Source: Microbotryum violaceum (Eukaryota). Taken from it: 64,000 nucleotides of DNA. Below, in pieces: positions 7,621-60,599 of the stretch. The notes under the pieces are model-generated. The model searched no databases. It was given only the letters and a program-made list of their open reading frames with translations, and was not told where the DNA came from. The DNA lies in assembly GCA_001244265.2 (NCBI GenBank), contig CDLV01000004.1, positions 3,596,001 through 3,660,000 of the forward strand, read 5' to 3'. Numbering within the stretch: the stretch's first letter is position 1; each line of letters starts with the position of its first letter. Made by a program: the position numbers and the translations under genes.

Positions 7621-7721
7621 GGTCGCGGATCGACACTTTTTTTTTACTAGTTAGGGTAATAGGGTAATGAGCTAAACGTCACTAAAAGTGCGCTTTTGGC
7701 ACTAAATCGCATAACGCGCGA

Positions 7722-10700
7722 GTGGCAAAGTTGCTGATGAAAGTCTACGTGGCATTCCCATCCGATCTCATGGCGATTTTGGTCGCTTCAAGAAAACATC
7801 AACCTGACTCCCCTCAACGTGAAGTCTTGGACAAGTACATCTTCGCATCTCCTCTTGTCCCATATCGAACTCTCGCCGACCTTCGATCTTTCGTTAGAGC
7901 TCGCCCTCAATCGGTCTGGTTTCTCCCGCTCTGCTTTCGCGATCATTGGGCAATGGCACGTGTTGATGTTGGGCAAAGGACATGGATGCTCTTCAACTCG
8001 CTCTCGCATATTCGGATCGACGAGATTACTCGCAACTCGGCACTGGCCTTGTTTGACTACCTCGAGCTGCATATGCTCAACACTGAACCGAAGCAAGGCC
8101 GCATGGCTCAACAGGCTGACGGCTCCTCCTGCGGACCAGCGGCTATCAATGTCGTCGAAACCGAGCTTCTTTTGGTTCCACCTTTTTCGGCCCGTCGCGC
8201 TCATATCGCTCGCATTCGCCAGTTTCACCGACTAGCAACATTCGCAACCAACTCTCAACATCTCACTCATGACTTGCCCGCGCCCATTGCCGGCATAGAC
8301 AGGAACGAGTTGGATGTCGAGGAGATGGCCGAGATCGAGAATGACGAGCAGACATGGTCCGGGATATGCTTCCGCTCAGATTCCGAGACGGACGACGATT
8401 GCACCACGGACGACGAATGCACCACGGACGATGATTGCACCACGGACGACGGAACTCCGAAGTCGGGGAATCAATCACAGCACGACGAGCCAGACTAGCC
8501 AAGGAGCATCTTAAAGACATCGAATACTCGAAGGCTCGCCCCGCAGCATTTGCTGAGTTTAGGGCGAAGGTCAAGCAGCTCTGCCCAGGATCGGACGGGA
8601 AGATCAAGAATTCCAGGACGGTGCAGTGCGGTCGCTGTCGTACGTATCACAAGATGAAGACACGGCACGGCGTCACTCGCTTCATGAAGCATCTCAACAA
8701 AAAGCCTCCGTGCACGAACATGCGCAAGATCGACCACTACTTTGCTGTTTGATCGCCCGCCGAAACGGCTGTCCAGTCGCAAGGCAAAAGCCTTGCCGAT
8801 CCTCCCGCATGTCCCGGCCTAACAGGCAAGCGTGTAGAGGTGTACCTCTCAAAGAGCTCTGCTCGAGGCGGAGGCGCACCCTCTCGGCTAAAACTCATCA
8901 AGAGAAGGTTCCCAAGAATTGGCAAACGTGTATTGACTCGTTCTGAACGCCGTGAGATCAACAATCTGGAAGCGAACGAGTGGATGTGGGTGAACGATCA
9001 TTCAGCACCCCGAGTGAACAGTTTCGACTGTACCAGGATCGGAATGGAGTCGCAATGTGGAACGAAATTGGAGCCTTGCGCCAAATGCAAGGCACTGCTT
9101 CGCACGAAAGCCTTCTCACAGGCGTTACATCGTCCTCGGGCCGTCGGACCCACAATCAAGTTCACGAATAAACGATTGGCTTCCGTCGAGGCTTTGATGT
9201 CAAAGGTTTTCAAGGAACACCAAGGCCTGGAGGAACTCTTGGGGACCAAAGATGGCAAGGTCTATCTTCGTTTCGCTCAAGGTTTAGTTTCCAGCGAGCT
9301 GGCTGGAGCCAACATTCTGAAAGGTATGGCAAAAGTCGCCGTGATCAAGCATAGGCAGGACGCACAAGGCAAGGACATGAGAGGCTATGTGCGAGACGAA
9401 GCTTTGCTTGACTTTGAACACGCGCTGGCTCTGGCATCTCCCACGGCGTTGCGCGTGGTGCAAAAAACTGTTGGCGGGGTCTCAATGCGCACACTTCAGC
9501 AAGTTTCAGACCTGATCTATCCGTCATTCTTTCAAGCTACTGACGGTTCTAAACCTCTCAGACAACATCGAGCAACATTCGAAAAGCCCAGGTTTGGCTT
9601 AGATGAGCCTCACATGCAGCGCATTATCCAAAAGATCCTTTCGGATGGGAAGACCTTTAACCTCCACGTTGACGACACGAAACTGCGACAAGTAATCAGG
9701 ACAACACGGGTTTATTCGAAGGACAAGGAAGCGGAAGCTCGCCTGCGCGGGCAGAAAATCTTCCGTCACGAGCTCGTTGGCATGGTTGGCCCGCCAATCG
9801 TGTATGAAACCACGCAGGAGCTCGAGGGTATCTTTCGGGGCCCGAATCCTCCGATCGCTGGCACCAAGGTCGCGACTATGTCTGCGCGGCGCTTTGATTG
9901 GTTGCTCATTCGCTGGCGTTTCTGTGAATAGGTTCGAGTGTACATGCTTGCACCAAACGACGTCTCTTGCCCAGCCCAATAATTTGCCGCATTCGTGATT
10001 GGTGACTCGCCGAGTTCATCCGAGGCTTCGGATGAACTGGAATCTGTTATTCAATTCCTCGTCAACGCGGGGTCGGCCATCTTCTTGCCTCCATCTCGGC
10101 GGATGGAGCGGCAAGCGAAGGCGTCTTGCAGCGCGTCATGGCAGAGCGACTTGGCGGCGATGAGGGGTATACCGGTGAGGGCCAGCGTCGGCGAGAGCTC
10201 GCACATGTCATTCCACCTCCAGGTCCCGACAAAGTCTTCCCAGCCATTCGACTGGCATCCGTTCAAGTGGGCGACACGCCTACGTGCTTCAATCGGGACG
10301 AAAAGCACCTGAGCAAAAATCTCCGCAGCGCGTGCGATTCAGGCGCCAGGGCAATATACGGCGGCACCGGATGTATCGGATATCGTGACCTGTTGACGCT
10401 GCTCAACGTCGAAGAGTCGGCGAGGACCTTGTATCTACGTGATGTAATTGGACGTGATCGTCAAGATGACAATGCGACGCATCGAGCGTTCTCCGAAGCT
10501 ACTCTCGCGCTTGCTTGCCGACTTTACGAGGACGGCAAATTCGATGCCGATGCCATCGTCTTCCTCTTTCTCTGCGGCGAGCTTCACGACGCGATACATA
10601 ACAGGTCCTTGCAGCCGATTGAACGTATTAAGATGCTATTGACGGTTCGTTATACATTTGAGGGATGGTTGACCTTCGTCCGCAATCGTCCCGGGTACAA

Positions 10701-13038
10701 CGCGCAGTCCTTTATTGCCAAGGAAAACCTGGACGGTGTGCGAAAGGTCGTCGATGCAAACATCGCCCTTATTCGGAGCTACCGCGACTTTTGGCCGGAA
10801 GAAGCGTTCATACCATGGTGACATGGTACGGAGATGGTCGAGCATTTTTTTGGCGGTTTGCGCAAAGTTGTGCAAGACTTGATGCTTTATAATTCCTGCA
10901 GGTAAGTCATCCTTCTTTCATGGCTTCACGTGAGCTACTGCTTGTAAAGCTTATATTTGGGTTTTAAATCGGCAAGCAAAGTTACTGCGCTTCTAGGACT
11001 GATGCGAAAGCTCAAGACAGAGACCGCAGGCTCGCGTCAAGGCTACCATCACATGTATGACAGGCTCGACGATCTCGACCTCGTCGCAATGCGGACTTAT
11101 CCAAGCGATGAAGAGATTCGGTCCACAAGCTTGGTTGCTGCAGGACTTGCAAAAGAGCTTCTTCTTGGTCTTCGAATGTGGGATACCATACAATATCAGA
11201 AGTCCAACCAGCTAGAGGAAGATATACCGGTCAATGGTGGGTGTCGCCCAAGCTTGTGGCTTCGTTTTGAGCAAAGCTGATTGATGTCGCCCCTTCCAGC
11301 TAGTGAACCTTGGCATTTCGAGCCCGAGGACGCTGAGCCGCTGTCGTACCTCGCTGACCTAGATCGGACCCTCAATGGGATCCGCACCAAAATGTGCCAA
11401 AGTCTCGTCGTGCTGGACCCGAAAGAGCGGAAGTCAGTTGAAAATGCTGTTCGCTCTTTAGCTGCTCTTGGCCTTGACAATGATGCTGCACTGTAAGTTG
11501 AGTGCCTTGAGACCTGTACCAGTCTCCCCTGAGCTGATAACTCATCTCGTCCAATTCTAGGCTTGCCGTTCAGCAGGCCTATGACGAGGCCGATGCTCAA
11601 GCAGAGGAACGCTTCCTGCTCGACACCATTGTGACAGCAAATGAAAGCTTGCCGGGTGATGTAGGTTCATTTAAGCAGCAGTTGTTCTCGTGTAGCAACA
11701 CTAAACGGAACCAGCATTCTTTCACAGGCTCAAATTATTCGGCTCCCAGCCCTTCTGCGTCACGACTCTCGTCAGCTTGTGCTTGATCTGAAAAGCGTAA
11801 TCCAGCACCGTCGGGCCCATCAATGTGCCCACCTCAGAGCTGTCCTACTCAAGGGAAGGCACGGCGCCACCACCTCGACTGCCCAAGATTCCGATCCCAC
11901 ATCAAAAGCAAATTGTCCGAGCACGGTGAAGTGCACTCCAGTGTCCTCCGAGGCTTAGTGCAATCAATGGGTGCAGCCCGTCTCGAAGCCCTGTCAGGAG
12001 TCGCGAGGTCCATTCGCTGGACAGGACAAGGGACCTTCAGTCGCTTTTCGACCGCAAACGAGACGGACAATATAGAATACATCGAAGACGGACGTAAAGA
12101 AGTGAGCTTCAATTGTGTGCTCTGCACATATGGCCCGGAGAGTGCTCATCAATAATGTTCATTCTTGCCCAGGTACGGATGCGATTGCGAGCAAGGCAAT
12201 ACACGGTATTCGCCAAGATCCCAATGTTTGGGTCGATCGACCGAAACATTGGGATCTCGGCTGAAAATCGGCTCTCTTGTCTACTTTGGATTGAAACGAG
12301 GCATCACACCTGTCAGTTGTGACGCCAGCAACATAGGAGAACAACTGTCGATTGGACTTGGTTCGTACATCTCACTGTAGCTAGCTTACTACTTCGCAGA
12401 GTGAATGACATCGATCTTGCCTTTCGGAGTACGTTACATGTATGCCAAGGCCACGTCAAATCATTGTGATAGAGCGGAGACCGACTCCCTAGCATTACTC
12501 TCGAATGTCGTCCTCCAAGAATTGCGAGTTGTCAGCAAGGGCCGTTATTCAACGCGATTGACGGCATGACTCGGTTCTTTGGACTCGATGCTCGACAAAT
12601 CATTCAATCCTTGGAATCATCCTCGACGCCCGCGCTCACTCTCGCACCACTGGATTCAGTTGCATACCTCGGGGAGCGTGTCTTGAGTAATCAAATGAAG
12701 GGCGTGAAAGATGTAGGGTCAAAAAGGAAGGCAGCAGGTGCAGGTGAGGAGCCCTCGGCAAAGCAGAACCGAACCGGCTGACACGCGCGCGGGCTCGCGC
12801 GGGCTCGGTCGGTTCGGCTCAGGCGAAAAACGTCCAGACGGCGTTTTCGCGATTTTTGGAGATGTTTTTGAGCATTTGAAGCAATTTTAGAGCTATTTTT
12901 TGAGGCGCGTAGATGGACTGGACATTTTGGGCACCTTTTTGGCCGAAAAATCCAAAAATTGGTGGACAAATAAGGTCCAAAATCCCGGATTTTGGCGGAT
13001 TTTACCTACGCGCCTCAGGCTGGGCTTTCGGGGGTCCT
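7722..13038 (+). mobile_element. Ulp1-protease / P-element-like DDE transposon, copy A (left end lost, right TIR intact, ORF decayed)
   Basis: Ulp1/C48 motifs (DHWAM, FNSL, QQADGSSCG), a CxxC..H..C finger, then LHVDDTK, SADGA (frameshifted), RDEKHL, DRQDD and PW*HGTEMVEHFFG. Introns at 9499-9561, 9869-9931 and from 10902. Ends ...CAGGCTGGGCTTTCGGGGGTCCT at 13038. Confidence 0.75.
8390..8450 (+). repeat. 18-bp coding tandem repeat (DDDCTT x3) in the acidic linker after the protease domain
   Basis: ggacgacgattgcaccac / ggacgacgaatgcaccac / ggacgatgattgcaccac. Confidence 0.85.
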
Positions 13039-13201
13039 GGCGAAGTCGAGGCGGCTCAGCCTGGGCAGAGCTGCTCACTAGGACCCCGACCGCATTGGCT
13101 CTTGGCTTCATGCTTGCCTCCGCCAGGCTCTTGAAGTCTCCGGTAGCAAGCCATTCGCTCACAAGGCGGCTCAACCGCAGCCCCAACTGCAACCGCAGGC
13201 G

Positions 13202-19210: not shown

Positions 19211-22200
19211 GTCGTTGACGGGCCTAATGACTCGATGACCTGTCGACCATCAATCATGGGGAACGGCATAGTGCCATCAATGAGGTGTGTGGAATAGCAT
19301 GTTTTCTTGATGAGGCGAAGCTCCTGTACGACGACATTTGAGAGCAGAACCAACGAGGCGAGCGTGTCTTGGTTGCAGTGGTTTGTTGTCACTCTGCTGT
19401 AGATGTGTCGCACTGTAGGACACAATACTTGTGTCAAACGAGAACTTCCTCAACTGCCGCTCAAAACAACGCGCGTACGAATTCCGATAGACAGCGCTTC
19501 TTCTCCATAAACAGTTTGATCACAGCTGAGTGAATGCATGCCACACTTGAGGCCAAAGCAGATCAGAGATCCAATCTCCAGTGGTGTGGCAGCGGTTACA
19601 GCTCCGTCAAGCGATCCAAAATGAGGATAGCGTTGTGCTAGCGCTCCGTACTGCTTGTCTCTCTCAGGGAGCTTTTCCTAAAAGTATAGGACCGGCAAAA
19701 CATTAGATCCAGCTGCCTTCGTTCCTAAATTCAGCAACAACTCACTTGAATGCGGCCGTCCTCAATATAGGCGTTCTTCTGAATCTCGTTTGTTGTGAGC
19801 GCTCGGGCCACCTGGCCACCTCCAGTCCAGCGAAAGCTCCTTGCGGTGCCCGCAATGTCTTCGAAGCGAGATGGTCCCATGGACTGCACCAACCCTTTCA
19901 AGACGCGTGAATGTACTGCACTGCGTCCTTGCTCTGTATTGCTAATCTCTAAGCCTGCCTCTCCGCGACTTGTGTCGCTCAATTCCATTGGCCTCCCTTT
20001 GAGTAGAACAGCTCTGAGGTGGCTACACTCATGAGCAGCTCGATGGGCAATCAAGCTGGCCCAGTTCAGCGAGAAACTGGTATCGCGAGCATCAACAAGA
20101 GGCGGAAGTTTCAAGTGTGTAGGCTCTATAGTACCGAAGATGCATGAGTTCAGATCGAAATTACGCTAGTCAAGCTTGGTAGACGCACGATTGAACGTAA
20201 TGAGCTGTTTGCCTTCTCAATGGTCTCGAGTCGTAGCGTTCCTCAGCTTGTCTGTCAGCTTCATCGTAAGCGATTTGCACGTCGAGTCTGGCCAATGAGA
20301 AAGGAGAACAATATGAGGTCCGGATTAAAAGGTAGAAGAACGCTTCAGCGCACGTGGCACAGTGAAGTGTCCACTCACAAGGCTGCCTCAACGTCAAAAT
20401 CCAGAGCTGCAAGCGATCGAATTGCACGGTCGACAGCTTCCCGCTCGTTTGGGTCCAGTTTCACAACACCTTGGCACGTGCTACGCCGCATGCCATCAAG
20501 AGCAGAATCCAGCAATTCGGTGCGGAGCAGACCTTGATCTTCCTTGGTAGGATGATGGTCTTCAAGATCTACTTCAAGTGGGCATGGTATCCCGTGTCAG
20601 ATACGCATCACTTGTAGACCAAGTCGTTCGGAACTACCTTGAACTGTTGTGCCATGGGCGAGTACGTCCTCGACGAGTATGTCAGGTTGCGGACCTTGGT
20701 TGCGTCTGTTGGACGCGATGCGTTGCACAGGTTCCCACATGCGTAAACCTGAAAGCAGTTCACGCGCAGTATTTGCCGCTGCAAAACTGGTGAGAGAGAT
20801 GTCGCCATCACTGGAGTACGTTCGCATCGCAACAAGGTCAAGATCGTTGAGGTCGTTGTAGGTATGATGGTAGCCTTGACGTGATCCCGCCGCCTCGGTC
20901 TTAAACTTCCTCATGAGCTCCAAGAGTGCAGTGACTTTGCCAGTTGCCTGTCGGATTCTAGCCGGGTTAACTACTGTATAGATTAGATTGATTTATGAAG
21001 AACGCACCTGCAAGAACTCTAGAGCATCGAACTCCTTTACAATCTGGCATATACCCCGAAGAAGTGCTCCACCATTTCTGTGCCATGCCGCCAGGGAATG
21101 AACGATTCCTTCGGCCAAAAATCTCGGTAGTTGCGGACGAGAGCAATCATTGAGTCAACCATCTTCCTGACCCCATCAAGCGTTTCTTTGGCGAGGAACG
21201 AGTGAGAGCTAGATCCGGGGCGACTTCGGACAAAGTCATACCACGCCTCGAACGTATATCTGACAACGAGCAACATCCTGATACGTTCAAGGGGCTGAAG
21301 CGACCGGTTCTGGATGGCATCGTGTAACTCGCCACATAAGAACAGATATACGACCGCATCGGGGTCGAGTTTTTTGTCTTCAGCGAGTTCGGTTACGAGT
21401 TCGAGCGTCGCCTTGGAGAATGCCCGATGTGTTGCATTGTCGTCTTGACGATCACGCCCGACCACATCACGACGAGACAGAGTACGACGCGACTCCAGTC
21501 CGCCCAGGATGGTGAGCATATCCTGGTAGGCAATGCATCCGAGACCACCGAACAGCAATCTTGCTCCAGAGTCGATAGCGTTCCTCAGACATTTGGCCAG
21601 GTGTTTTTCGTCCCGACAGAAGACTATCGGCGTTCCCGCGACGTTGACGGTCGATATAGTGATCTCAGGAAACACTCCGTCCGGATCTGGGGAGGGGAGG
21701 GTGTATGATGACGCGTTCCTTGATCCGGTTTGAGCAACAGCGCCACCCTGATCGCGCAGAAGGACGGCAACATTACGTTGCAGCACACCCTCGCTTGCCG
21801 CACCATCTGCGGAGATGGATACCAGAAGGTGTGCGACGCAACGTTTTATTAATTCTTGTATCACTGAATGTAACTGTTCGGTCGCGTCCTCCGCGTTCGT
21901 AGTTTCGCCGATCACAAAAGCGGCAAACACCTGTGCTGGGGAGCCAACATCGTTCGGTGCTATCATGTAAGCTCGGATCTGAATGAAGAGGCGACACAAG
22001 TTAAAGCCTCATGGAAATGAAGTACAAACTTAAAAGAATCATTGCCACTCACTTTGGTTCCAGCAACCGGGGGGTCAGGTCCGCCGAACATATCAGGGAG
22101 TTCACCCGGAGTTTCGTAGATGCGTGGCGGACCAATTGATCCGATCAGCTCGTGGCGGAATATGCCCTTCGTACGTAGTTCGCGCTCTAAACTGAGGTCT

Positions 22201-23951
22201 TCTGAGTAGTTTGGAGTGGTTCGCATCCTGGATCGACAATTCGTGTCGTCTACGTGCAAATTGAACGTTAGGCCGTCTGCTTCGAGTTTCGCGCAGACAC
22301 GATCCATGTTGGACTTGTCGAGGCTGAGGCGCATCCTGCCTGATGTCGCTCGGTCCATTCTGCAAGCACCTCGATCATTCAGTATGAGGTTGAGTTGAAG
22401 GAACGAAAGAATGACAGTACTCACTGCAGTTTTAGGCTTGTGGATGCGCCGATTGTAGCCTGCAGCACTCTCAGAGCCATCGGAGACGCCAGCGCCATGG
22501 CTTGCTCGAAGTCACGCAGCGCTTCGGACCGCACAAAGCCTCGCATCGATTTGCCCTTGACCATCCGATCGTGCTTGACCGTAGCCGCTTTCACCAATCC
22601 CTCCAAGATGTTCGCTCCGTCAAATTCTCCTGAGGCCACACCTTGCGCGAACCGTAGATACACGGTCCCTTGACCGTTGTCATCCAGGATCTCTTCTAGT
22701 CCATGATGTCGCCGGTAGATGGCCGAGAGAAGTGTATCGCCCGCGACATATTTCTTGTTGGTGTATTTGCGAGTTGCGCCAGCAGCATATTGACGTCGAA
22801 GAGCTGCTCGACAGGATGAATCCTTAGGGAGCCTCGCGCATTCTTCACACGGTAAGCTTGGTCCGTCCTTGTTGATCGAATCTCGAGCGCTATACTTGCG
22901 ACAATTAACACTGATGATGCGCGGTGCTCGATGATCGTTGCGCCACTTCCATTCATTCGCTTCCAATTTGTCCACCTTCCTCTCGAGCTCCGTCATTGGT
23001 CGTTTACCAATTTTGGGATAGAGGCGCAAACGAAGCGTCCGTCGAGGAAGGGCCCCGCCACCTTGCGCCGCAGTTGATGAAAGATAATGCATCGCCGTTT
23101 CAGACGTAAGGCCGGGGCACGGTCCTAGCGAGGGGCTGGTAGCAGTTGAGCCAGAGGCGATAGGTCTGAAGAAATTGCTGATGGGTTGGAGGTTGACACA
23201 CTTCTTATTGCCGAGATGTAATTGAAATCGTGCCTTGCACAGCAAGGCCGCCATTGGAACCAAGGCATAACAACGTCCACACCGCACGTACTTTGGATTG
23301 TTGACGTCGACATTCGATCCCGGGCAAAGATCTTCGACTTTTTCAGCAAACCTCCTGAAAAGAGGCGGATGGTCGCGAGCGCACGTCGTATGCTCCTCGG
23401 GGGTGAGCTCTCAAGCTTTCGTCGGCTTCGATACCTTGGTGAAGGTCGTTTGAAGTCGAGAAGTTGGCGGGTTTTTTGAGGATGATGCGATTCGTTGATT
23501 TGTTGGCTTGATTGTCGCTGCCTTGCCGGACTCTGCCGACGTGCTCTTGCTGCTCAGTGTTCCGGCAGCGGATCCCCTCCCATACTTTGCCTTTGATTTT
23601 GCGTCCGTGGCAGCGATGGATTCGATCTCTTTGGGATCCTCGACAGCACCAACCAGAGAGGATAAACGACAGAATTGACGGAGCCGTGACATGTGAGCGC
23701 GCGCTGCGTTGAATGACCCAATCCCGAGCACCTCCGTCTCCACTGCATTGATCGTAGCCGGGCCGCACGAGTAGCTGTCTTCCTGTTGTTCCGCCTTAGG
23801 AGTATGAGGGAACTCGTTTTTGATGTCCAGCTTCAGAAATTTGAATAGCGTAAGGACGGCCGTCCGAGTAGCCGCGGTGATCGGAGTGGCGGAGAGTGAG
23901 TTGATCACAGACCATGTCCGCTTGTGCATGTTGATGCGGGCCAGGACCCAA
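19211..23951 (-). mobile_element. Ulp1-protease / P-element-like transposon, copy B (diverged subfamily, both ends truncated)
   Basis: Colinear with copy A: WVLAR..INSL..QQEDSYSCG, VRCGRC, EANEWKWRNDH, VYLRFAQG, FNLHVDDT, ISADGA, RDEKHLAKCLRN, DRQDD, PWRHGTEMVEHFFG, STHLIDG. Same three intron positions. Confidence 0.75.
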
Positions 23952-25456
23952 TCCTTTGGAGCCACGAGTGATACGAGAGACTGGATGTTTTTCTCGATAT
24001 TTCCCGCTCTGGGTGCGCCTGCCACTCCTTGATGAGGCGCGCCGTTCCCAGATGGTCCGTCATGATAGTGATCGGTGTCCCGTCTGACGTCATGTACCGT
24101 GCAGCATTCACCGCCACAATGAACGCGGGAACTTCCGCTTGCTGAATTGTTGCACGATACGGGAGAAGTATCCTAAGGTCCACTGGGCCCACCACTGCTG
24201 CTGCCGTGGATGTCATACAGGTCCCCCAATTTATGACCGAGCCATCCGTTGCCCATACGCTCTGCCAAATATTCTGTGTCGGGTCGAGTCCCTGTGCTCT
24301 GATCTGTGCTTCCATGTTTGCCATGATGCCGTTCTCCTGTTAGCTACATCGAGCCTGCCGACTCTGACCGTCGTGCGTTCCCCGGCCGGAAGTCTCCAAG
24401 GACAGGAGCTCTTTCCTTGCTGTCCGTGTGATCAGCTCAAGTTGCGCTCGGATTTGAGGGCTTTCCCCATCGATCAGGTTCATCCTGCGGCCCAGGTCTG
24501 AGAGGGTTCGTGTGTTTGCGGTTTTGTACTGCGGAGTTGATGGCCCGACCTCGATGGCCTCTGGTATGCTTGTCTAGTAAGTGTGCCAAGTTGACGTCCC
24601 CGGACCGCAGACTGATGTCGTCGGTGTTCGCTATTTCTATTGGGTGACAGGCATCCAGAATTGCAAAGGTGTTTGCCCAGTTTGGCACAATTGTCCTTGT
24701 CAAGTACTCCTTTTTATATTTTTCTGCCCCCCAAAGTTTAAGCAGGCTTCTCCCCTTTGTTTTCTTTCTCGCGAGTTTCTTGGCCCGGTCGCCAGTAGTG
24801 GCATCGATTTCAGTCCTGATTCGCATTTGTTCGGCCCGCAGTGCAGGTCGCTGAGCGTGATTTGAGCCATCGCTCGCATCGTCGGCAAGTGGTGGTTGAG
24901 ATCCCGTTTTTGACTAGGTTAAATGGAACACTCTTTTCATGCCTCCCGATTCCTCGACATAGAGTGCCATTAATTATTCATTATAGGTTAACTTCTTTAT
25001 ACCTATGACCTTAATTCTTTAGTTGGTAATAAAAGGGAATGAGTACTCCTGTTACGATCATATTTGCATTAAGCCTCAGATGCTTGAAAGTCCCATGCCG
25101 AATTCTGCTATCGGCATACATAGGAGTTTAGCGCTTGCCGTAAGGGGTAGGTTTAAGTACTACTGGACTTGATTCGCGATCAAGTTGTCAAGTTTCTCTG
25201 CTTGTTCCATGCTGACTGGGCTCAGACTCAGCTTTCCCCGAATCTTGCTAATCACGGCTTGTTCTAGATATCGCAGCATCGCCGTCAGTGGCAAACGTTG
25301 TGTTGGCATTGATGGAATCCCCGAACAGCTGGTGATATTTTTGATACTTTCAAAGTGAGAGTTTTCATAGTCCAGTGAGGTTTGTAGAAATGTCAGCCCC
25401 TGAGCACCACGGACATCTCTGGGTCCGTGGGGTGTTCCGATTGTCATTTTTGGCAT
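23952..25456 (-). mobile_element. Non-LTR-type retroelement fragment: RT thumb/linker and RNase H
   Basis: RNase H motifs VWATDGS, IQQAEV and IMTDH in ORF 23905-24324. The upstream ORF 25160-25456 resembles an RT C-terminal region. Decayed. Confidence 0.6.
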
Positions 25457-25692: not shown

Positions 25693-30677
<4,985 letters not shown>

Positions 30678-34945: not shown

Positions 34946-35929
34946 ACATTGAGGACCTGCCACGGGATGGTGAGCCGCAAGTCACGCGACCAGAGCCTGT
35001 TTTCTGGCATGATTCGTTACAACTATCAGTATTCTCGCTGTTGTCCATCTGTAGCAATGGCAGTGAAGACTCACATTTAGTGTCCCAATGACCCGGCGGA
35101 TCTTCAACCGTACAAAGTCAATCCTTCCGCTGTTTCACTGACGTTCAATGTCTGTTTTTGGTGTCAGTTTTTCCGTCATATCTAAGACTGCACAGCCATG
35201 TCAAGGGAGGACTCACGTATGCAATGTCACCAGCTGACGGTGAAGAAACAACTCGGGGGTTGACACTCGAAGAGAATGTGTTGAAGGGAATTTCTGCTTG
35301 GTAGTAACCCATTAGCTTCTGAACAATTCCACACCAAGAGCACAGTTCATGAAGTTACTCACTCGAATTCGTAGCTATGCTGCATGTGGCAGCCATTTCT
35401 TGATCCCGTATTCGTTGCAGAGCTTCCACGACGACCGCTTCAGTCGGATGTCGCGAGCTCGAGGTGGCGATGGGATGAGGTGCGATGGGCAAGGTGTGAA
35501 GAGCAGGAGGGAGAAAGATGGAGAAGTCTGCGCCTCAGTTCAAACCGGAGTCATAGAATGTCGCGGACGGCCGTAGAACGTCGTGGAGTGAAGCCCGAAG
35601 CAGAAGGTCATGTGCCAGGCTGCTCTGATGGGAAATGGAACCTCGACAAACGTTGGAACCTCGGCGAACGTGGATGGAACGGTCTGTCGCCATGTGGTCT
35701 GTCTCCCGTTCTCTGACGTTCTTTGACGTCGACGTGGTGGACACGCGAAACAGTCTGCTTCGGAACAGAGAGAGTCACGTGCTGTTGAATGGAACCTCGG
35801 CGAAGGTAGACGAAACGGTCTCGCCGATGCTGAAACAGCGCTAGCTAACTGGGACGCGCTGGACCGAGAGCTGCCTATGACGTCACGCCACGTGGTTTGT
35901 CTCGTTCTAGAATGTTCTTTGTCTCGACG

Positions 35930-36112
35930 GCCTATTTTATTATATAGTTTTAAGCATTTTTATTTTATAAGTTTTAAGGAATAAGTTTTAAGGATAGTAG
36001 GATTAGAGTATAGTAGGATAAGTTTTAAGGATAGTTTTAAGGATTAGTAGATAGTTTTAAGGAAAGGATAGTAGATAGATGTAGATAGATAGATGTTGAT
36101 AGTTTTTAAGGA
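35930..36112. repeat. AT-rich low-complexity array of Helitron 5'-terminal motifs
   Basis: Repeated (ta)gttttaagga and tagatag motifs. The same motif ends the Helitron at 54042. Confidence 0.75.
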
Positions 36113-36113
36113 T

Positions 36114-38562
36114 AAGCTTCTTGGCTGGTCGAAGGAGGCGTTTCGTCTGAGTGCGCCGTCTCTTGCCTCCCCCGGCCCGTCGCGTCGTCTGTGCCACATC
36201 GTCATCAACATCCTAGGTTAGGCTCTCGCTTCAGTCAACTTCGACGAGATGTATCTAGACAATTTGGATATCGAGCTCCTTGACGATGATTTCGAGCGAA
36301 TGGCACCCCTCTTGGACGTGAGGGTGTCTGAGCTTCTTGCCTTCCGCTTCGACAACCCGGAGACCTAAGTACAGCTTTCGTGGTCGACAGACGAGCCTCT
36401 CGAGTTTGATACTCTTCCTAGGCCGTTCGATGCTTGGAGGTCCAAGTTCAAGGATCGTGGAGCAATTACTGCGGCACGTGAGCAAGGTTACCGGTCTATT
36501 GCTATCGCTGGGCACCGGCTGCCTTTCGGTGTCGAAAGGATCTGGCGGCATATAGATTACGCCGAGCGCATGCGTTCGATCGTTATCAGTAGCCAAAAGT
36601 AGATGGAAATATTATCTGGGTGTCGACATCGAAAGTCAGCCTCTCATCGTTAAGGCTCTGGAGGTGCTGCTGCCACTGCTCATTGAGGAGCACTATACCC
36701 CCTCAATGATCCTCGGGTGTAGCGCATTCTTGGACACGCGGCTCGATTTCGTTGGTAAGCAGCCAAGTTGTTCGTCTGTTCGATGGCGTGGTTGATTGGG
36801 ATTATTTTTCGTGCTTTTCCTATGGACAACGTGGCTTGGAGAAAGGTCTCGTCGGGAGCCGGAAGAGCGGAAGTCAGTTGAACACGCTGTTCGCTCTTTA
36901 GCTGCTCTTGGCCTTAACAATGATACTGCACCGTAAGTTGAGTGCAATGAGACCTGTACCAACCTCCTCCGAGCTGATGATACGTCTCTTCCAACTCTAG
37001 GCTTGCCGTTCAGCAGGCCTATGACGAGGCCGATGCTCAAGCAGAGGAATGCTTTCTACTCGACGCCATTGTGACAGCAAATGAAAACTTGCCAGGTCGT
37101 GTAGGTTCATTTAAGTAGCAACTGTCTTCTTGCAGAACCACTAAACAGAACCTGCACTCTTTCACAGGCTCAAATTCTTCGGCTCCTATCCCTTCTGCGT
37201 CACGACCCTCGTCAGCTTGCGCTTGATCTGAAAAGCTTGATCGAGCACCGTTGGGCCCATCAATGTGCCCACCTCAAGGCTGTCCTACTCAAGGGAAGGC
37301 ACGGCGCCCCCACCTCGACTGCCCAAGATTTCGATCCCACATCAAAAGCAAATTGTCCGAGCACGGTGAAGTGCACTCCAGTGTCCTCCGAGGCTTAGTG
37401 CAATCAATGGGTGCAGCCCATCTCGAAGCCATGTCAGGAGTCGCGAGGTTCATTCGTTGGACAGGACAAGGGACCTTCAGTCGCTTTTCGATCGCAAACG
37501 AGACAGACAACATAGGGTACATCGAAGACGGACGTAAAGAAGTGAGCTACAATCGTGTGCTGTGCACATATGGCCCAGAGCCCGAGTGCTCATCAATAAT
37601 GCTCATTCTTGCCCAGGTACGGATGCAATTGCGAGCAAGGCAATACACGGTATTCGCCAAGATCCCACCGTTTGGGTCGATTGACAGAAACGTCACTTCA
37701 GCCATGCCTTTGAAAATCGGCTCTCTTGTCTGCGTCGGATTGAAACAAGGCATCATACCTGTCAGTTGTGACGCCAGCAACATAGGAGAAGAACAATTGT
37801 CCATTGGACTTGGTTTGTGCATCTCACTGTAGCTAGCTTACTGCTTTGCAGAGTGACTGACATCGATTTTACCTCTCGTAGTACGTTACATGTATGCCAA
37901 GGCCACGTCAAATCATTGTGACAGAGCGGAGACCGACTCCCTCGCATTACTCTCGAATGTCGTCCTCCAAGAATGGCGAGTTGTGAGCAAGGGCCGTTGT
38001 TCAACGCATATGATTGACGGCACGACTCGCTTCTTTGGACTCGATGCTCGACAAATTATTCAATCCTTGGAATCATCCTCAACGCCCGCCCTCACTCTCG
38101 CACCCCAAGGATTCAGTCGCATACCTCGGGGAGCGTGTCTTCGACTTAAGCCAGCAGGCTGAGGCAAGGTTCTGTTTTCTTCGACACTGCAACGGATTAC
38201 GGAAACTTTTTTTCCCTTGAATAATCAAATGAAGGGTGTGAAAGATGTAGGGTCAAAAAGGAAGGCAGCAAGTGCAGGTGAGGAGCCCTCGGCCAAGCAG
38301 AACCGAACCGGCTGACACGCGCGCGTGCTCCGCCGATTCGGCCCGAGCGAAAAACGTCCGGACGGCGTTTTCGCGATATTTGGAGATGTTTCAGAGCATT
38401 TGAAGCAATTCTAGAACTATTTTTTGAGGCGCGTAGATGGACTGGACATTTTAGGGACTTTTTTGGGCGAAAATTCCAAAAAATGATGGACAAATGAGGT
38501 CCAAAATCGGCGATTTTGCCGGATTTTACCTACGCGCCTCAGGCTGGGCTTTCATGGGTCCT
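36114..38562 (+). mobile_element. Internally deleted derivative of the Ulp1/P-like transposon (copy C); left tip missing
   Basis: 36114-36710 matches 42276-42860 and ~36860-38562 matches ~11420-13038. Ends ...GGGCTTTCATGGGTCCT. Confidence 0.88.
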
Positions 38563-38826: not shown

Positions 38827-41198
38827 ATGGGCAAAGTCTCCAAAGGCAAACAGACGAAAGCGTTCCTCAAAAAAGGGCTCTTGTCCGGCCAGATCAAGAA
38901 ACGGCACGAGGTCAAGGCGTTCAGACAAAAAGTGAAGGGGAGGCAGGTCAAGAGGAACAGGAGGGCTGACGAGGTAAAGCCAGCTGACGGGGACAACGAC
39001 GACGGAGAGGACAGTTTGGATGAAGAGGCGGGTAACCGAGCCAAGTATAGCGAGGATGAGGACGAGGATGAGATCGACGTCGAGGACGTCTTGGGCGCCG
39101 ATGGGTTACAGAACGATGATCAGGTCCGTCACAGCAGAATGCGATTCAGTGTCCTTGCCCAAACTGAAACCATTATTCCCCCCACAGAGCGGCCACGACG
39201 ACGACGACGACGATGATCTCGCCCTCGAGGACGACGACTTGTCCAATCTCGGCTCCGATTCCGACAACGAGACCGCTTCACGCTCGTGCAAACGATCCCA
39301 CGTCGCCGATCTCAAAGCTTTGGCCGAGAAGGACACCGACTTTTTCAAGTATTTGCAGGAGAACGATGCTGAATTGCTCCAGTTCAATGAGGACGAGGAT
39401 GAGCAGGACGACGATGACGAAGAGGAGCACGATGAGGACGACGACGACGAGGATGAGGAAGACACCAACAGGCGAGGCAAAAAAGTCGAAAAGGAGAAGC
39501 CAGCACCCGTCTTAACGCACGAAATTCTCAGGAAATGGCAGAAATCCATCCTGCGGGTTAGTCTTGTCAGCCCGAGGCGTCCGAACCCTGGACTGATCAC
39601 TTTTCTCCCTCGTCAGACCCGCTCGATCCGCTCGCTCAAGAAACTCTTGCTCGCCTTCCGATGCGCCGCCACTACCGGATCGCACCAGACCTCACTGCAA
39701 GGCGCACGCTGGGAGATCCAATCGCCCAAAGTGTTCCACAACCTCATCATCGCCTCGCTCAAATTCACCCCGGTGACTCTATCCTCTGCCGTGCCGTACA
39801 AGGAAAAGGACGGCAAATACAAGCTCGCGACCAATACGAAAGCCTATGCGTTGGCCCAACGACTGATCAAGTCCTACTTTGTTTCCTTGCAAGCCCTCTT
39901 GGGCAGCGTGTCGACTTCTTCGGGGATCCCTTTGGTCGCGGTGAACGAGTCGTCCAAGCTGGTGCCCTACATCGTAGGCAATCGTAAGATCGCTCGAGCA
40001 TGGGTCAAGCTCTTGCTCTCGTTGTACGAATACTCGACCGACGAAGTGCGCGTCGCAGCTTTCCTCGGCCTTCGTAAACTTGCCATCGCTTCCGACCACA
40101 GTCTGCGTGAATCCGTTCTCAAAGGCGTGTACGCGACCTTTTTGAGCTCGTCAAAGACGACAAACGTGCATTCGTTGCCGAGTCTGAACCTGATGAAGAA
40201 CGCGGCGAGTCAGTTGTTCTTGATCGAGGGGAAACAGGAGCAGGAGTTGGTGTACCAGTTGACGTTTGGGTACGTGAGGATGTTAGCCATGTTGTTGAGG
40301 AAGGCCGTCAAGGAGGGGTCCAAGGTGGGCCGAATACTCTCGCCATTCTCGGAAAAAAGCTGTGCTAATCTGACGCGTTTCGATCCAGGACTCGTTCAAA
40401 TCGGTCTACAACTGGCAGTTCGTACACGCCTTTGACTTTTGGTCGATCGTGCTCAGTTCAGCGTGCGACCTCGAACGCACGCGATCCCAAACCCACGACT
40501 CGCCCTTACGCCAACTGTTGTACCCGTTGATCCAAGTCGGTCAAGGCGCGATCCGCCTCGTGCCTACCTCGCGTTACTTTCCCCTACGCTTCCACCTCAT
40601 CCGATCCCTCCTGCGCATCGTCCAAAAAACGGGAGTCTACATCCCGCTCGCGACGAGCCTCTTCGAAGTCCTCGATTCCCCCGAGTTGGGAGGGACGTCC
40701 CCAACAGGTCTTGCGGCGAGGGCGTTGAAGCGATCTACTTTGAAACCGTTGGATTTCGAGTTGTACCTCAAGGCGCCTTCGAAATACCCCAAGACGAGGG
40801 TGTACGCCGATGGGTTGGCGGATGAGGTCGTACATCTCTTAGGAGAGTACCTCACCGCGTGGTCGACCTCGATCGCGTTCCCCGAATGGAGTCTACCTTG
40901 CATCGTCACGCTCAAGAGGCACGCTAAAAAGACGCGGCAAGCCAAATTAGGGGCGTTCATCAAGGTCTTGGTCAACAAGACGGAGATGAATGCCAAGTGG
41001 ATCGAAGGGGAGAGAGAAAAGATCGAGTTTGCGCCGATGCAGAGGGACAAGGTGGAGAGATTCTTGTTGGGGTTCGAGAAGGAGAAGACGCCTTTAGGGG
41101 GTTGGATGAGGTTGCAGAGGAAGGTGAGGGAGAGGACGAGGGAGATGGTGGACCAAGCGGCGCGGGCCGAGGGGATTGAGGTGGAGGAGGGTGAGTAG
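38827..41198 (+). CDS. NOC2: Nucleolar complex protein 2 (Noc2), 4 exons: 38827-39123, 39188-39556, 39617-40324, 40389-41198 (~727 aa)
   Basis: FFKYLQENDAELLQF, LNLMKN, VYNWQFVH, LLYPLIQV, RYFPLRFH and SIAFPE. Phase-0 GT-AG introns give an uninterrupted frame. Confidence 0.93.
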
Positions 41199-41874: not shown

Positions 41875-42040
41875 GCTTGCGTGGGATTGCGTGTGCTGGC
41901 GTGGCAATTCGGTAGGAGAGAGTGAGGGGAGAGTGAGGGCGTGTCGAGGGGAGAGCATGAACAGGGAGGAAGAGAATAGAGGGAAGAGAACAGAGACGAA
42001 GAGAACAGGGAGGAAGAGCGCGGGGAGAGCGCTCGCACAT

Positions 42041-43283
42041 AGGGCCCCCGAAAGCCCGGCCTGGACAAATCATGGTGCGCCGGTGTGGGTGGGGTCCTAG
42101 GCCCGTAGGTTTCAGTGGACAAATCGGGACCCATTTCGGCCACTTCGGCTTGGAAAGTCAAAGTTCGCCGACCCTCAAGAGCCGCGGGAGCGCGCGCGAA
42201 ACATTCTGGGCTGTACCGAATGCACAACAACGGCTCTAATGGATGGATATTTTGCCCTTACAGTTTTGCACTTCTAAGCTTTTGGCTGGTTAGACGAAGC
42301 GTTTGAGTGCGCGCGTCTCTTGCCTTCCCCGCCGCGTCACGTCGACGTCGTCTGTGCCATCATCGCTGCCATCATCGCCAACTTGAATATCCTACATTCT
42401 CGGCACGGCTTGCTTCGACGAAACGTAGAGACCCGGATATCGATCTGTTTGACGATGATCTTGGGCGAATGGCACCCCTCTTGGACGTGACGGTGTCTGA
42501 GCTTTTCACCTCCAGCTTTGACAAACCAGACACCCGGATACAGCTTTCATGGTCGACAGACGAGCCTCTCGAGTTTGAATCCTTTGCTAGGCCGCTCGAT
42601 GCTTTGATGGACAAGTTGAAGATCGTGGAGCAATCCTTGAAGCACGTAGGCAAGGCCACCAGTCTATCACTATCGGCTGCCTTTCGATTTCGAATCTGGC
42701 GGCATATAGATCACGCTGAGCGCATGCGTTCGGTTGTTCTCAGTAGCCAAGAGTTGGGGGGGTTATCCGCGTGTCGGCATCGAAGTCCAACGTCCCATCG
42801 TTAGAGCTCTGGAGGTGATGCCGTCACTGCTCGTTGAGGAGCAATTACCCCCTCAATGAAACCTGGGGGTTCGTAGATCTCACTGTAGCTAGCTTACTGC
42901 TTCGCAGAGTGACTACAAGCAATCTTATCTCTCGTGGTACGTTACATGCATACCATGGCCACGTTAAATCATAATCAAAGAGGCAGGCAGTAAGTGCAGG
43001 TGAGGAGCCCTCGGCGAAGCCGAATCGAAACGGCTGACGCGCGCGCGGGCTCCGCCGATTCGGCCCGAGCGAAAAACGTCCGGACGGCGTTTTCGCGGAT
43101 TTTGGAGATGTTTTAGAGCATTTGAAGCAATCCTAGAACTATTTTTTGAGGCGCGTAGATGGACTGGACTTTTTTGGGACTTCTTTGGGCGAAAATTCCA
43201 AAAAATGATGGACAAATGAGGTCCAAATCGGCGACTTTGGCGGATTTTACCTACGCGCCTCAGGCTGGGCTTTCATGGGTCCT
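42041..43283 (+). mobile_element. Complete non-autonomous derivative (1243 bp) of the Ulp1/P-like transposon with TIRs and 8-bp TSD (copy D)
   Basis: Left end AGGGCCCCCGAAAGCCCGGCCTG and right end CAGGCTGGGCTTTCATGGGTCCT match 19/23 as inverted repeats. Flanks are TCGCACAT (42033-42040) and TCGCATAT (43284-43291). Confidence 0.9.
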
Positions 43284-43316
43284 TCGCATATCGTCGTCAT
43301 TTTGGCCGAGCGCGCG

Positions 43317-43665
43317 AGGACCCCCGAAAGCCCAGCCTGAGGCGCATAGGTAAAATCCGCCAAAATCCCGGATTTTGGACCTCATTTGTCCACCAACTTT
43401 TGGATTTTTCGGCCAAAAAGGTCCCCAAAATGTCCAGTTCATCTACGCTCGTCCAAAGATAGCTCTAGAATTGCTTCAAATGCTCTAAAACATCTTCAAA
43501 AACCGCGAAAACGCCGTCCGGACGTTTTTCGCTCGGGCCGAATCGGCGGAGCCCGCGCGCGCGTCAGCCGTTTCGGTTCTGCTTCGCCGAGGGCTCTTCA
43601 CCTGCACTTACTGCCTACCTCTTTGACTATGATTTAACGTGGCCATGGTATATTAACGCACCGCG
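43317..43665 (-). mobile_element. Right end of another non-autonomous copy (copy E), tail-to-tail with copy D
   Basis: Starts AGGACCCCCGAAAGCCCAGCCTG. Reverse complement of ~42935-43283, including the same internal deletion junction. Confidence 0.88.
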
Positions 43666-43744
43666 GGGCGGCGACCAGTCCCTGAACTTCCAGTGATCCA
43701 GTGCCGTCTATAAAGTCACACTAACAACCATGGCCCGAGATAGG

Positions 43745-45395
43745 TGTAAGGCGCCGCTCCGCTTACGCCTCACGACGACCTCGAGCCGACCTCTGCGGCC
43801 TCACGCTTGCCCTCGCGCGCGGCGCCGCCGCGTCTCTTGACCTCAGTCCTTTTAGTAGTCTTTCTTCGCCTGCGAATACACCGCTTGATCCTTTCTGTTC
43901 GGACTCGGAACCAGTGAGGCTCGAGAGCGATCTCGTGCCTTTCACTTTTTTTTTTTGAAACTGACAACTCGGCTGTACGACTCCGTCACCACCCGACGTT
44001 AAAGCCCAACCTTCGCAACCGCCCCGGCAACGCATGGTGCAGACCCGCTCAGCCGCTGCGAAGGAAAAAAAAAAAAACGAACCAGAACCCGGAACCACCA
44101 GAACCCAGAACCCAGAACCACCAGAACCAGAACCCCGCCCGGCCCCTGCCCCCGCCCAGCCCCGCTCCGCCCAGCCCCGCAACACGGCCTCGAGCACCGT
44201 GCCCGCCACAGAACCCCGAATCGAACCGGAACAGAACAGGAGAATGTCGTTCGACTCCCGCGATACACCCCTGCACATGGAGACCCCGGCACGAAGAGTC
44301 AAGCTCGATATGCCGTTGTTGAAGGCGGGTTCCAAGTCGAGGGACGTGGCGCGCTGGCTGGCAGGGTGCGAAGATGCGGTCGAATCGGCCGAATGGAACT
44401 ACGGCAAGATTGCGACCGTACACCTCATTCGTGAGGCCGGCAGCCGGATGGAGGGGGAAGGAGGGGACTGGTACATTGATTCTCGCGACAAGTTGAGGCG
44501 CTCAAAACGTGGGACGACTTTGCAGCGAAAGTGAAGGCGCGATTCGTCAGCGAGAAGACCGGCTTGGCGGCGGAGCACGCCTTTTTCAACGCGCAACAGA
44601 GCGGGACGTTCAACGAATTCATTGCACTATTGACGCAAGAGCGCAGCCAAGCTGGATTGGCCTCCGACGGCACCCAAGTCATCCCCGATGAACTGTTCAA
44701 GCGCCAACTGCTCCACCGATGCGACGAGCTCCTGTATCTCCGCGCGACCGCCTCCCCCTCGTTTGCGCTTGACAAGTTTTCCGTCAATGCACTTGTGGCA
44801 TATCTCCAGACGATGTGGGACGCTATCACCTTGGAGCGAGCAACAACAGGCATGCGGAGGCTCAACTTACGTCACGAACGCGGTGAACCAACTCAGGCTG
44901 TGGGGCCTCGCACACCAAGGTTGGAAGGTGCAGCAAAGGAGAAGGCAATGTTCGAAGGCCGCTGTTTCGTTTGCGACACGGTAGGCCACATCTCTTCAAA
45001 CTGCCCTTCCAAGCCCAACACTGCATCCCCTCGTCGCGATCCCCCGGGATCTACCCCGGGCCTCGAATGGTAGCCGCAATCCGAGCGTACGAGGACATCG
45101 GTAATTCAACCGCCTTTGTAGGCATCTCAAGCGATTCAGAAGACGACGACGAACGATTGTTTGCGTCAGAACCCGGATAAGGGAATTGATTCAAGGAGGG
45201 GTGAGTGTAAGGCGCCGCTCCGTTTAGGGCCTCACGACAACCTCAGCGGCCGAAGCCTTACTTGCGCGCGGCGCCACGGGCGCCTCTTGACCTTAGTCCT
45301 TTTAGTAGTCTTTCTTCGCCTGCGATTTACACCGTTTGATCCTTTCTGTTCGGACTCGGAATCAGTGAGGCTCGAGAGCGATCTCGTGCCTTTCA
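43745..45395 (+). mobile_element. Gag-only LTR retroelement (LTRs 43745-43944 and 45206-45395), no pol
   Basis: TG...CA LTRs of the same family as the solo LTR at 6885. PPT AAGGAGGGGTGAG at 45193-45205. The interior is gag only. Flanks ATAGG and TGAGC do not match. Confidence 0.88.
44034..45073 (+). pseudogene. Retrotransposon Gag with CCHC zinc knuckle, one frameshift near 44500
   Basis: ORFs 44034-44534 and 44531-45073; knuckle GRCFVCDTVGHISSNC. Confidence 0.8.
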
Positions 45396-60518: not shown

Positions 60519-60599
60519 TAGTCGCTACAATGACTATGACTTCTGATCCACCATAGGCTCACCTGGACACTCGTGTTAGTCGCTGAGGGGAGACTAAGA

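What the first reader, a model, noticed from the sequence alone, without database searches (positions are those of the whole stretch)
42033..43291. Non-autonomous copy defines the family's ends: 23-bp TIR and 8-bp TSD
Seen: left end AGGGCCCCCGAAAGCCCGGCCTG matches the right ends at 13038, 38562, 43283 and 43317 (19-21 of 23 bases). All four right ends stop at CCT with different flanks. Copy D is bracketed by TCGCACAT and TCGCATAT. TGGACAAAT recurs subterminally at both ends (about 42062, 42116, 12963, 43208). Inference: this is cut-and-paste mobility with an 8-bp staggered cut, trans-mobilised deletion derivatives, and candidate transposase-binding sites.
Basis: partly seen in the sequence, partly recalled or inferred. 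Interest (0 to 1): 0.75.

Follow-up and report, generated by a model that had tools for sequence, protein, structure and literature searches.

The report
Deleted P-like transposon copy in Microbotryum
This is a 1.2-kb gutted copy of a cut-and-paste DNA transposon in an anther-smut fungus; it keeps both inverted ends and an 8-base target duplication, and the family's enzyme folds like the fruit-fly P element transposase, a group thought rare in fungi.

Summary
Window 42041-43283 is a 1,243-bp element. Its left 23 bases match the reverse complement of four right ends at 19-21 of 23. It is flanked by TCGCACAT/TCGCATAT (7 of 8), and 8 bp is the only length that fits. The four right ends all stop at CCT, and the next base differs in all four.

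This is the only copy in the window with a left end, so the 23-bp TIR and 8-bp TSD rest on one element. No genome census or empty-site search was possible.

Copy D is an internal-deletion derivative. It keeps the 5' leader, about 145 N-terminal codons, two short 3' pieces and the 3' end of a roughly 1,400-1,800-aa gene.

That protein is 84% identical to Microbotryum gene models. It carries an Ulp1 protease domain and a core with no Pfam hit of its own. The predicted fold of the core matches the Drosophila P element transposase (Foldseek E 2e-13; next is Hermes at 7e-5).

P-family elements make 8-bp TSDs, have subterminal binding sites at unequal spacing, and produce deleted non-autonomous copies.

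TGGACAAAT recurs above chance but in direct orientation, not inverted. Mobilisation of the deleted form is inferred. Ordinary TE biology with a modest twist.

The parts
42033..42040 (.). left copy of the target-site duplication, TCGCACAT
   Evidence: 7/8 match to 43284-43291; 8 bp is the only length that fits
42041..42063 (+). left 23-bp terminal inverted repeat; the only left terminus in the window
42062..42071 (+). subterminal motif TGGACAAATC, copy 1; overlaps the last 2 bases of the TIR
42116..42125 (+). subterminal motif TGGACAAATC, copy 2; 76 bp from the left end
42041..43283 (+). copy D: complete 1,243-bp non-autonomous, internally deleted element
42277..42859 (+). 5' part shared with copy C (36112-36709, about 80% identity). 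Holds the remains of the N-terminal codons: 42460-42750 matches P0005 residues 172-273.
42868..42972 (+). 105-bp remnant of the 3' coding region (matches A 12360-12464 and C 37812-37916, 85-86% identity)
42975..43283 (+). right terminal region: last codons plus about 257 bp non-coding. 94% identical to C, 90% to E, 85% to A.
43209..43217 (+). subterminal motif TGGACAAAT at the right end, 67-75 bp from the terminus, same orientation as at the left end
43261..43283 (-). right 23-bp terminal inverted repeat (19/23 to the left TIR)
43284..43291 (.). right copy of the target-site duplication, TCGCATAT
43317..43665 (-). copy E: 349-bp right-end fragment, tail to tail with D, 33 bp away
36112..38562 (+). 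copy C: deletion derivative. It lacks the left about 236 bp (an AT-rich tandem repeat lies there instead). Right end at 38562.
7746..13038 (+). copy A: decayed long copy. It carries the Ulp1 domain and the transposase core in broken frames. The 5' part is missing. Right end at 13038.
19470..23998 (-). copy F: a second, related subfamily (96-100% aa identity to P0005 over most of its length), without either end

Best explanation
Window 42041-43283 is a 1,243-bp internally deleted, non-autonomous copy of a Microbotryum DNA transposon. The full-length form would be about 6 kb by my estimate. It encodes one large protein with an Ulp1-type protease domain followed by a P-element/THAP9-like DDE transposase core: an RNase H fold with a large inserted domain.

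Proposed mechanism. The transposase recognises the 23-bp imperfect inverted ends (AGG...CCT) and probably subterminal sites such as TGGACAAAT(C). It pairs the two ends, excises the element, and joins it to target DNA at positions 8 bp apart. Repair then leaves the 8-bp duplication TCGCAYAT. D keeps the ends but not the enzyme, so any movement after the deletions needed transposase from another copy.

What is shown and what is inferred:
- Shown: the ends, the flanking duplication, the deletion structure and the fold class of the protein.
- Inferred: the catalytic mechanism, the binding role of the motif, and mobilisation in trans.
For: Ends and TSD:
- TIR match is 19-21/23 and absent from shuffles.
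- The four right ends stop at the same base, with four different next bases.
- The 7/8 duplication fits only at 8 bp, against a background of 4.7e-4.

Deletion structure:
- D 260-819 matches C 36144-36709, D 828-932 matches A and C, and D 935-1243 matches the right ends.
- D and C carry the N-terminal codons of the gene: tblastn with P0005 residues 145-277.
- The gene ends 257 bp before the right terminus in A.

Protein:
- ORF 8753-9928 is 84% identical to a Microbotryum silenes-dioicae model of 1,375 aa.
- There are 517 representative relatives at E<=1e-3.
- 9 of 28 distant relatives also carry Peptidase_C48 upstream of the core, and 2 of 28 hit PF12017.
- 6 of 25 members hit PF12017 weakly and 3 of 25 hit PF21787 weakly.
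- The AlphaFold model has pLDDT 74.8, with the core blocks mostly above 85.
- Foldseek's best hits are the P element transposase 6pe2_A/6p5a_A at E 2.3e-13, target TM 0.67-0.69. Next come Hermes at 6.6e-5 and RAG1 at 1.4e-4.
- Atlas look-alikes are TNP-like/THAP9 clusters and Basidiomycota hypothetical proteins.
- Near-invariant acidic residues are D139, D261 and E504, plus a D326-x2-H329 motif.

P elements have 8-bp TSDs, TIRs, internal binding sites at unequal distances from the two ends, and internally deleted non-autonomous copies (passages of PMC7776569).
Against: - Only 1 copy in the window has both ends, so 8 bp is n=1 and imperfect (7/8), and D's own TIR has 4 mismatches.
- The window's own subfamily has no Pfam hit to any P-transposase family: 0 of 7 Microbotryum proteins, and P0002 has none even at E<=1.
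- A sequence profile of 25 relatives found no transposase among PDB sequences; the 5 hits had E 1.9-8 and all were unrelated.
- No THAP domain was detected in any protein scanned.
- I saw no residue-level superposition on the P transposase, so the catalytic triad is assigned from conservation and secondary-structure position only.
- The motif sites are direct, not inverted, and a cruder test gave only p of about 0.03-0.07.
- No intact transposase gene lies in the window.
Confidence: 0.8

Rival explanations
1. D inserted as a full-length or longer element and lost its interior in place. Under this reading the deleted form itself never moved, and there was no trans-mobilisation. Ends, TSD and superfamily stay as in the best explanation.
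For: - D does not share a deletion junction with C. The segment C 36710-37811, which would hold C's own junction, is absent from D.
- One D junction shows a short repeat (TCAAA) of the kind left by simple deletion (by eye).
- The region is TE-rich and decayed.
Against: - Internally deleted copies that keep both ends are the usual mobilised form in P elements.
- C is a second, different deletion derivative of the same family at another locus.
- Neither point is decisive.
Confidence: 0.3
2. The element is a hAT-family transposon, the other common source of 8-bp TSDs.
For: - The TSD is 8 bp.
- Hermes appears among the fold matches at E 6.6e-5.
Against: - P element transposase scores eight orders of magnitude better: target TM 0.67-0.69 against 0.25 for Hermes.
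- No hAT dimerisation or BED family was hit in any of the proteins scanned.
- Atlas neighbours are TNP-like/THAP9, not hAT.
Confidence: 0.03
3. The element belongs to Zisupton/KDZ. From recall, that fungal and fish group has 8-bp TSDs and is sometimes associated with Ulp1.
For: - Ulp1 domain at 7686-8498.
- 8-bp TSD.
- The link between Zisupton and Ulp1/8 bp is recalled, not taken from a call.
Against: - No KDZ or CxC Pfam family was hit in 0 of 7, 0 of 28 and 0 of 25 proteins.
- The fold match is to P transposase.
Confidence: 0.02
4. The flank match is chance and the left 'TIR' is not a real terminus. D would then be a rearranged fragment rather than a discrete inserted element.
For: - There is only one left end, the TSD is imperfect, and D's first 236 bp match nothing else in the window.
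Against: - A 19-21/23 inverted match sits exactly where the 7/8 duplication abuts on both sides.
- The background for the flank match alone is 4.7e-4.
- The TIR match is absent from 100 shuffles.
- D's left part continues into the true N-terminal coding region of the gene.
Confidence: 0.07

Closest known systems
Drosophila P element and its internally deleted non-autonomous copies (P / THAP9 superfamily)
   Same: - The transposase core fold is the best PDB match.
- 8-bp TSD, terminal inverted repeats, and subterminal candidate binding sites at unequal distances from the two ends (22 and 76 bp from the left end, 67 bp from the right).
- Deleted copies keep both ends.
   Different: - The TIR is 23 bp and imperfect, against 31 bp and perfect.
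- No THAP domain was detected.
- The protein is about twice as long and carries an N-terminal Ulp1 protease domain.
- The window's own subfamily has no Pfam match.
- The motif copies are direct, not inverted.
- GTP dependence and the 17-nt staggered cut are untested.
Fungal P-superfamily entries in RepBase. They are listed as 'only Pucciniales & Allomyces', 17 entries, with 11 single occurrences found in a 2017 survey (table passage of PMC5751038).
   Same: Same superfamily by fold. Pucciniales and Microbotryum are both in Pucciniomycotina (Pucciniomycotina placement of M. lychnidis-dioicae: passage of PMC12210899).
   Different: I could not see those RepBase sequences. Whether they are the same Ulp1-fused lineage is therefore unknown. 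The survey used the Pfam P models, which miss this family.
hAT elements (Ac/Ds, Hermes)
   Same: 8-bp TSD and deletion derivatives.
   Different: The fold match is far weaker, and no hAT families were hit.
Ulp1-carrying transposons of other superfamilies, e.g. Ginger2 (search listing of PMC2836005)
   Same: An Ulp1 protease domain is encoded by the element.
   Different: The transposase class is different. Here the protease lies in the same reading frame and gene model as a P-like core.

Membership tests
P / THAP9 transposon superfamily | RNase H-fold transposase core with a large domain inserted before the helix that carries the catalytic E, most similar to P element transposase | tested here: met
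   Model pLDDT 74.8. Foldseek 6pe2_A/6p5a_A E 2.3e-13, target TM 0.67-0.69; next best Hermes 6.6e-5. Atlas neighbours are TNP-like/THAP9.
P / THAP9 transposon superfamily | Sequence-profile match to the Pfam P transposase families (PF12017, PF21787-9) | tested here: inconclusive
   0 of 7 Microbotryum proteins. 2 of 28 distant relatives hit PF12017 at 1.4e-5 and 1.1e-4. 6 of 25 hit PF12017 and 3 of 25 hit PF21787, all weakly, and P0002 itself hit none. A profile search against PDB sequences found no transposase.
P / THAP9 transposon superfamily | Conserved acidic D, D, E residues | tested here: inconclusive
   D138/D139, D261 and E504 are at least 90% conserved or invariant. They lie on strand 133-141, after strand 255-260 and in helix 504-516 of the model. 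No residue-level superposition on D230/D303/E531 was seen; those P element residue numbers are recalled.
P / THAP9 transposon superfamily | 8-bp target-site duplication | tested here: met
   1 of 1 complete copy, 7/8 identical, and 8 bp is the only length that fits. The family feature is taken from passages of PMC7776569.
P / THAP9 transposon superfamily | Terminal inverted repeats | tested here: met
   23 bp, 19-21/23.
P / THAP9 transposon superfamily | N-terminal THAP zinc-finger DNA-binding domain | tested here: not met
   No THAP family hit (7 proteins, E<=0.05; 28 proteins, E<=0.001) or 71 (25 proteins, E<=1). Cys/His-rich stretches are visible by eye in P0001 but are unclassified.
P / THAP9 transposon superfamily | GTP cofactor and a 17-nt staggered donor cut | not testable with these tools
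   Biochemical features.
hAT superfamily | hAT dimerisation domain / Hermes-like fold | tested here: not met
   No hAT Pfam family. Hermes E 6.6e-5, target TM 0.25.
Zisupton / KDZ | KDZ transposase domain | tested here: not met
   No KDZ or CxC family hit.
Non-autonomous deletion derivative | Both termini kept and the transposase gene lost, with homology to both ends of the long form | tested here: met
Non-autonomous deletion derivative | Moved after the deletion (same junctions at several loci) | not testable with these tools
   No eukaryote genome collection is available. Only one copy with these junctions lies in the window.

The most novel reading that the evidence does not exclude
The element stands for a large, largely unrecognised basidiomycete lineage of P/THAP9-like transposons.
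- The transposase is fused to an Ulp1 protease, and no THAP domain is detectable.
- There are 517 clusters at 50% identity, with E<=1e-3.
- The Pfam models used in fungal surveys miss this lineage, so the P superfamily would not be the rare, perhaps horizontally acquired, guest in fungi that the 2017 survey reported.
- Copy D would give the lineage its first defined ends: a 23-bp TIR, an 8-bp TSD, and direct subterminal sites at unequal spacing.
Probability: 0.4. Interest if true: 0.5.

Novelty: new member of a known kind. Interest (0 to 1): 0.35.

Why it matters
It gives exact boundaries and a superfamily assignment to a TIR transposon family in Microbotryum. In the passages I read, that genus's TE papers treat TIR elements only as a bulk category.

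It also shows that Pfam-based surveys can miss P-like transposases in fungi, so their rarity there may be partly a detection artefact.

Defined ends allow copy census, dating, and insertion-polymorphism work on the TE-rich non-recombining mating-type chromosomes of anther-smut fungi. The biology itself is standard cut-and-paste transposition.

Tried and rejected
- **Pfam on the window's own ORFs.** Only a borderline Ulp1 hit (7686-8498, E 4e-4) and nothing for the core.
- **P0005 against PDB sequences.** Only an Ulp1-like protease, E 3e-4.
- **Profile A1 against PDB sequences.** No transposase.
- **A second complete copy in the window.** There is none:
  - A's 5' part is absent from 5000-8000, even at word size 7 and with tblastx.
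  - C's left end is replaced by an AT-rich repeat.
  - E is a 349-bp fragment.
  - F lacks both ends. Its downstream sequence reads by eye like retrotransposon pol; this is untested.
- **The apparent extra TIR start near 13080** (AGGACCCCG). It did not pass the 7-mismatch scan.
- **Names and taxa of distant relatives.**
  - The listing of cluster members could not be run.
  - A profile word search returned only Microbotryum names plus two unnamed proteins.
- **Literature.**
  - The Microbotryum TE papers give no family-level description in the passages found.
  - Additional file 6 of PMC4469406 is a figure without text.
  - 12 of that paper's 24 supplementary files were searched for Wicker superfamily codes, with no hit; the other 12 were not searched.
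  - Searches for Ulp1 with P-like transposases in fungi found no description.
  - RepBase itself was not visible.
- **First structure job.** It was too large and was rerun on a 90-sequence alignment.

Full report
**What the window is**

The DNA is eukaryotic, about 54% G+C and rich in repeats:
- LTR-retrotransposon RT and protease on the minus strand at 25853-28212.
- A LINE-like endonuclease at 60559-61878.
- A 143-bp satellite at about 31946-34866.
- One clear host gene, Noc2, at 38978-41198.

ORF 8753-9928 is 84% identical over 91% of its length to a 1,375-aa gene model of Microbotryum silenes-dioicae (P0001). Its other named relatives are all Microbotryum proteins. The window therefore comes from an anther-smut fungus of that genus.

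**Checking the observation**

The 23-base left end lies at 42041-42063. Its match to the reverse complement of the right ends is:
- 21/23 at 13038.
- 19/23 at 38562.
- 19/23 at 43283.
- 21/23 at 43317, where the end lies in inverted orientation.

Similarity stops after base 23. Shuffled sequence gives no such match (0.00 expected). A looser scan, with three variants and up to 7 mismatches, finds only these five termini plus two unrelated 7-mismatch sites.

The four right ends align up to CCT, and the next base is G, A, T and C respectively. That fixes the right boundary to the base.

D is flanked by TCGCACAT and TCGCATAT:
- Among duplication lengths 2-12, only 8 fits (7/8).
- Shifting the boundaries by up to 3 bases gives nothing new.
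- A 7/8-or-better match has a background frequency of 4.7e-4.

TGGACAAAT occurs 7 times against 0.49 expected:
- Two copies are in D's left end, as the 10-mer TGGACAAATC at offsets 22 and 76.
- One is in the right end of each of A, C, D and E, which is one homologous site.
- One is inside copy F.

A test for a 9-mer present at both ends with at least 3 non-overlapping copies is reached by 23 of 20,000 Markov resamples and 2 of 579 real control windows. A cruder version that counted overlapping low-complexity words gave 3.4% and 42 of 604. All sites have the same orientation as the gene, so they are not inverted between the two ends.

The main limit is that the window has exactly one left terminus. 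The TIR pairing and the TSD therefore rest on one element.

**Anatomy of the family in the window**

- **Copy A (7746-13038, +)** is the long form.
  - It carries a borderline Ulp1 domain (7686-8498) and the large core in several broken frames.
  - It has an in-frame stop inside the conserved W*HGTEMVEHFFG motif.
  - Its gene ends at 12781, 257 bp before the terminus.
  - Its 5' part is missing.
- **Copy C (about 36112-38562, +)** joins the N-terminal codons to the last third of the gene. It has lost the left terminal 236 bp, where an AT-rich tandem repeat now lies.
- **Copy D** keeps several pieces.
  - It keeps the left 236 bp, which are unique in the window.
  - It keeps the 5' leader and about 145 N-terminal codons. 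D 260-819 matches C at 80% identity, and tblastn matches P0005 residues 172-273.
  - It keeps a 105-bp piece of the 3' coding region and the last 309 bp.
- **Copy E (43317-43665, -)** is a right-end fragment lying tail to tail with D, 33 bp away.
- **Copy F (19470-23998, -)** is a second subfamily, 96-100% identical in protein to P0005 over most of its length, with neither end.

D is thus a true internal-deletion derivative with both ends. C is another deletion derivative with one end.

**What the protein is**

Neither the window's ORFs nor the seven Microbotryum relatives hit any transposase family in Pfam. Four of the seven hit Peptidase_C48.

An exhaustive search with P0002 (862 aa, covering the core) found 517 representative relatives at E<=1e-3. 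The conserved part is residues 1-530.

Pfam scans of those relatives gave:
- Of 28 long distant relatives, 9 carry Peptidase_C48 upstream of the core and 2 hit the P-transposase HTH family PF12017.
- Of 25 scanned at E<=1, 6 hit PF12017 and 3 hit PF21787, all weakly.

Alignments show near-invariant D138/D139, D261, D326-x2-H329-x2-K332-x2-R335-N336, a DRQDDNA block, and E504 in STExxEHxFG.

An AlphaFold model from a 90-sequence alignment has mean pLDDT 74.8, with the core blocks mostly above 85. Its best PDB matches are:
- The two Drosophila P element transposase structures, at E 2.3e-13 and target-normalised TM 0.67-0.69.
- Hermes next, at 6.6e-5 (TM 0.25).
- RAG1 at 1.4e-4.

The ESM Atlas independently lists TNP-like/THAP9 clusters and unnamed Basidiomycota clusters as nearest neighbours.

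Against this, a sequence profile found no transposase among PDB sequences, and no THAP domain was detected anywhere.

**How it most likely works**

Passages of the P element review PMC7776569 describe these P-family features:
- TIRs.
- Internal transposase-binding sites at different distances from the two ends.
- Internally deleted non-autonomous copies.
- Integration at positions 8 bp apart, giving 8-bp TSDs.

D matches this pattern point for point at the DNA level.

Two of the four TIR mismatches in D are CpG transitions. A and E keep CCCCCG where C and D have CCCATG. Together with the single transition in the TSD, this fits an old insertion decaying by the CpG/TCG-biased mutation reported for Microbotryum TEs (passages of PMC4469406 and PMC10502011).

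Three things are not shown:
- That D moved after its deletions.
- That TGGACAAAT is bound by the protein.
- That any copy is active today.

**Comparison with what is known, and novelty**

By fold, TSD and end architecture the family works like a P element. As for membership, the fold, TSD and TIR criteria are met, the Pfam sequence criteria are inconclusive, and the THAP criterion is not met.

A 2017 survey lists P elements in fungi as RepBase entries 'only Pucciniales & Allomyces'. It found 11 single occurrences using the Pfam P models (table passage of PMC5751038).

Microbotryum lychnidis-dioicae is listed among the non-Pucciniales Pucciniomycotina genomes (passage of PMC12210899). This family may therefore belong with the RepBase entries from rusts, which I could not see.

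I file it as a new member of a known kind. The conserved Ulp1 fusion, and the fact that Pfam misses the family, are the only unusual points. My searches found no paper describing them.

**What stayed unchecked**

- Cluster names and taxa of distant relatives could not be looked up.

Noticed in passing
window 31946-34866 (related unit at 52533-52695): About 21 head-to-tail copies of a 143-bp satellite, with flanking repeats shared among 29192-30653, 35017-35928 and 52041-53883.
   Followed up: no
window 19470-23998 (-): A second subfamily of the same Ulp1/P-like gene, 96-100% identical in protein to the M. silenes-dioicae model P0005 over most of its length. The last 67 residues of that gene model map onto unrelated downstream sequence that reads by eye like retrotransposon pol, so the model is probably chimeric.
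   Followed up: partly
window 47003-47052 and 48251-48300: 50-nt inverted repeat (94%) with 1,198 bp between the arms. Outside both arms lie arrays of a GCGC(T/C)AACTCA-like motif. This is possibly another TIR element whose true ends lie further out.
   Followed up: partly
window 6884-7086, 43744-43945, 45203-45395: A roughly 200-bp repeat (85-97% identity). Two copies flank a gag/zinc-knuckle ORF (44480-45073) right next to copy E, and a third lies just upstream of copy A. This is likely an LTR of a retrotransposon that truncated these copies.
   Followed up: no
window 28811-29184 and 29597-29970: 374-nt inverted repeat, 99% complementary, with 412 nt between the arms.
   Followed up: no
window 43284-43316: D and E lie tail to tail only 33 bp apart. 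The four right-end flanks (GGCGAAGT, AGCGCGGA, TCGCATAT, CGCGCGCT) are GC-rich with a GCG/CGC core. With n=4 this is too few to call a target preference.
   Followed up: partly
window 10819-10821: The in-frame stop in copy A is TGA where the relatives have Arg (W-R-HGTEMVEHFFG). By eye this is a CGA-to-TGA change, the CpG-type transition reported for Microbotryum TEs.
   Followed up: partly
window 4191-7650 (-): Four long overlapping or adjacent minus-strand ORFs (246-437 aa) with no Pfam hit. Their nature is unknown.
   Followed up: no
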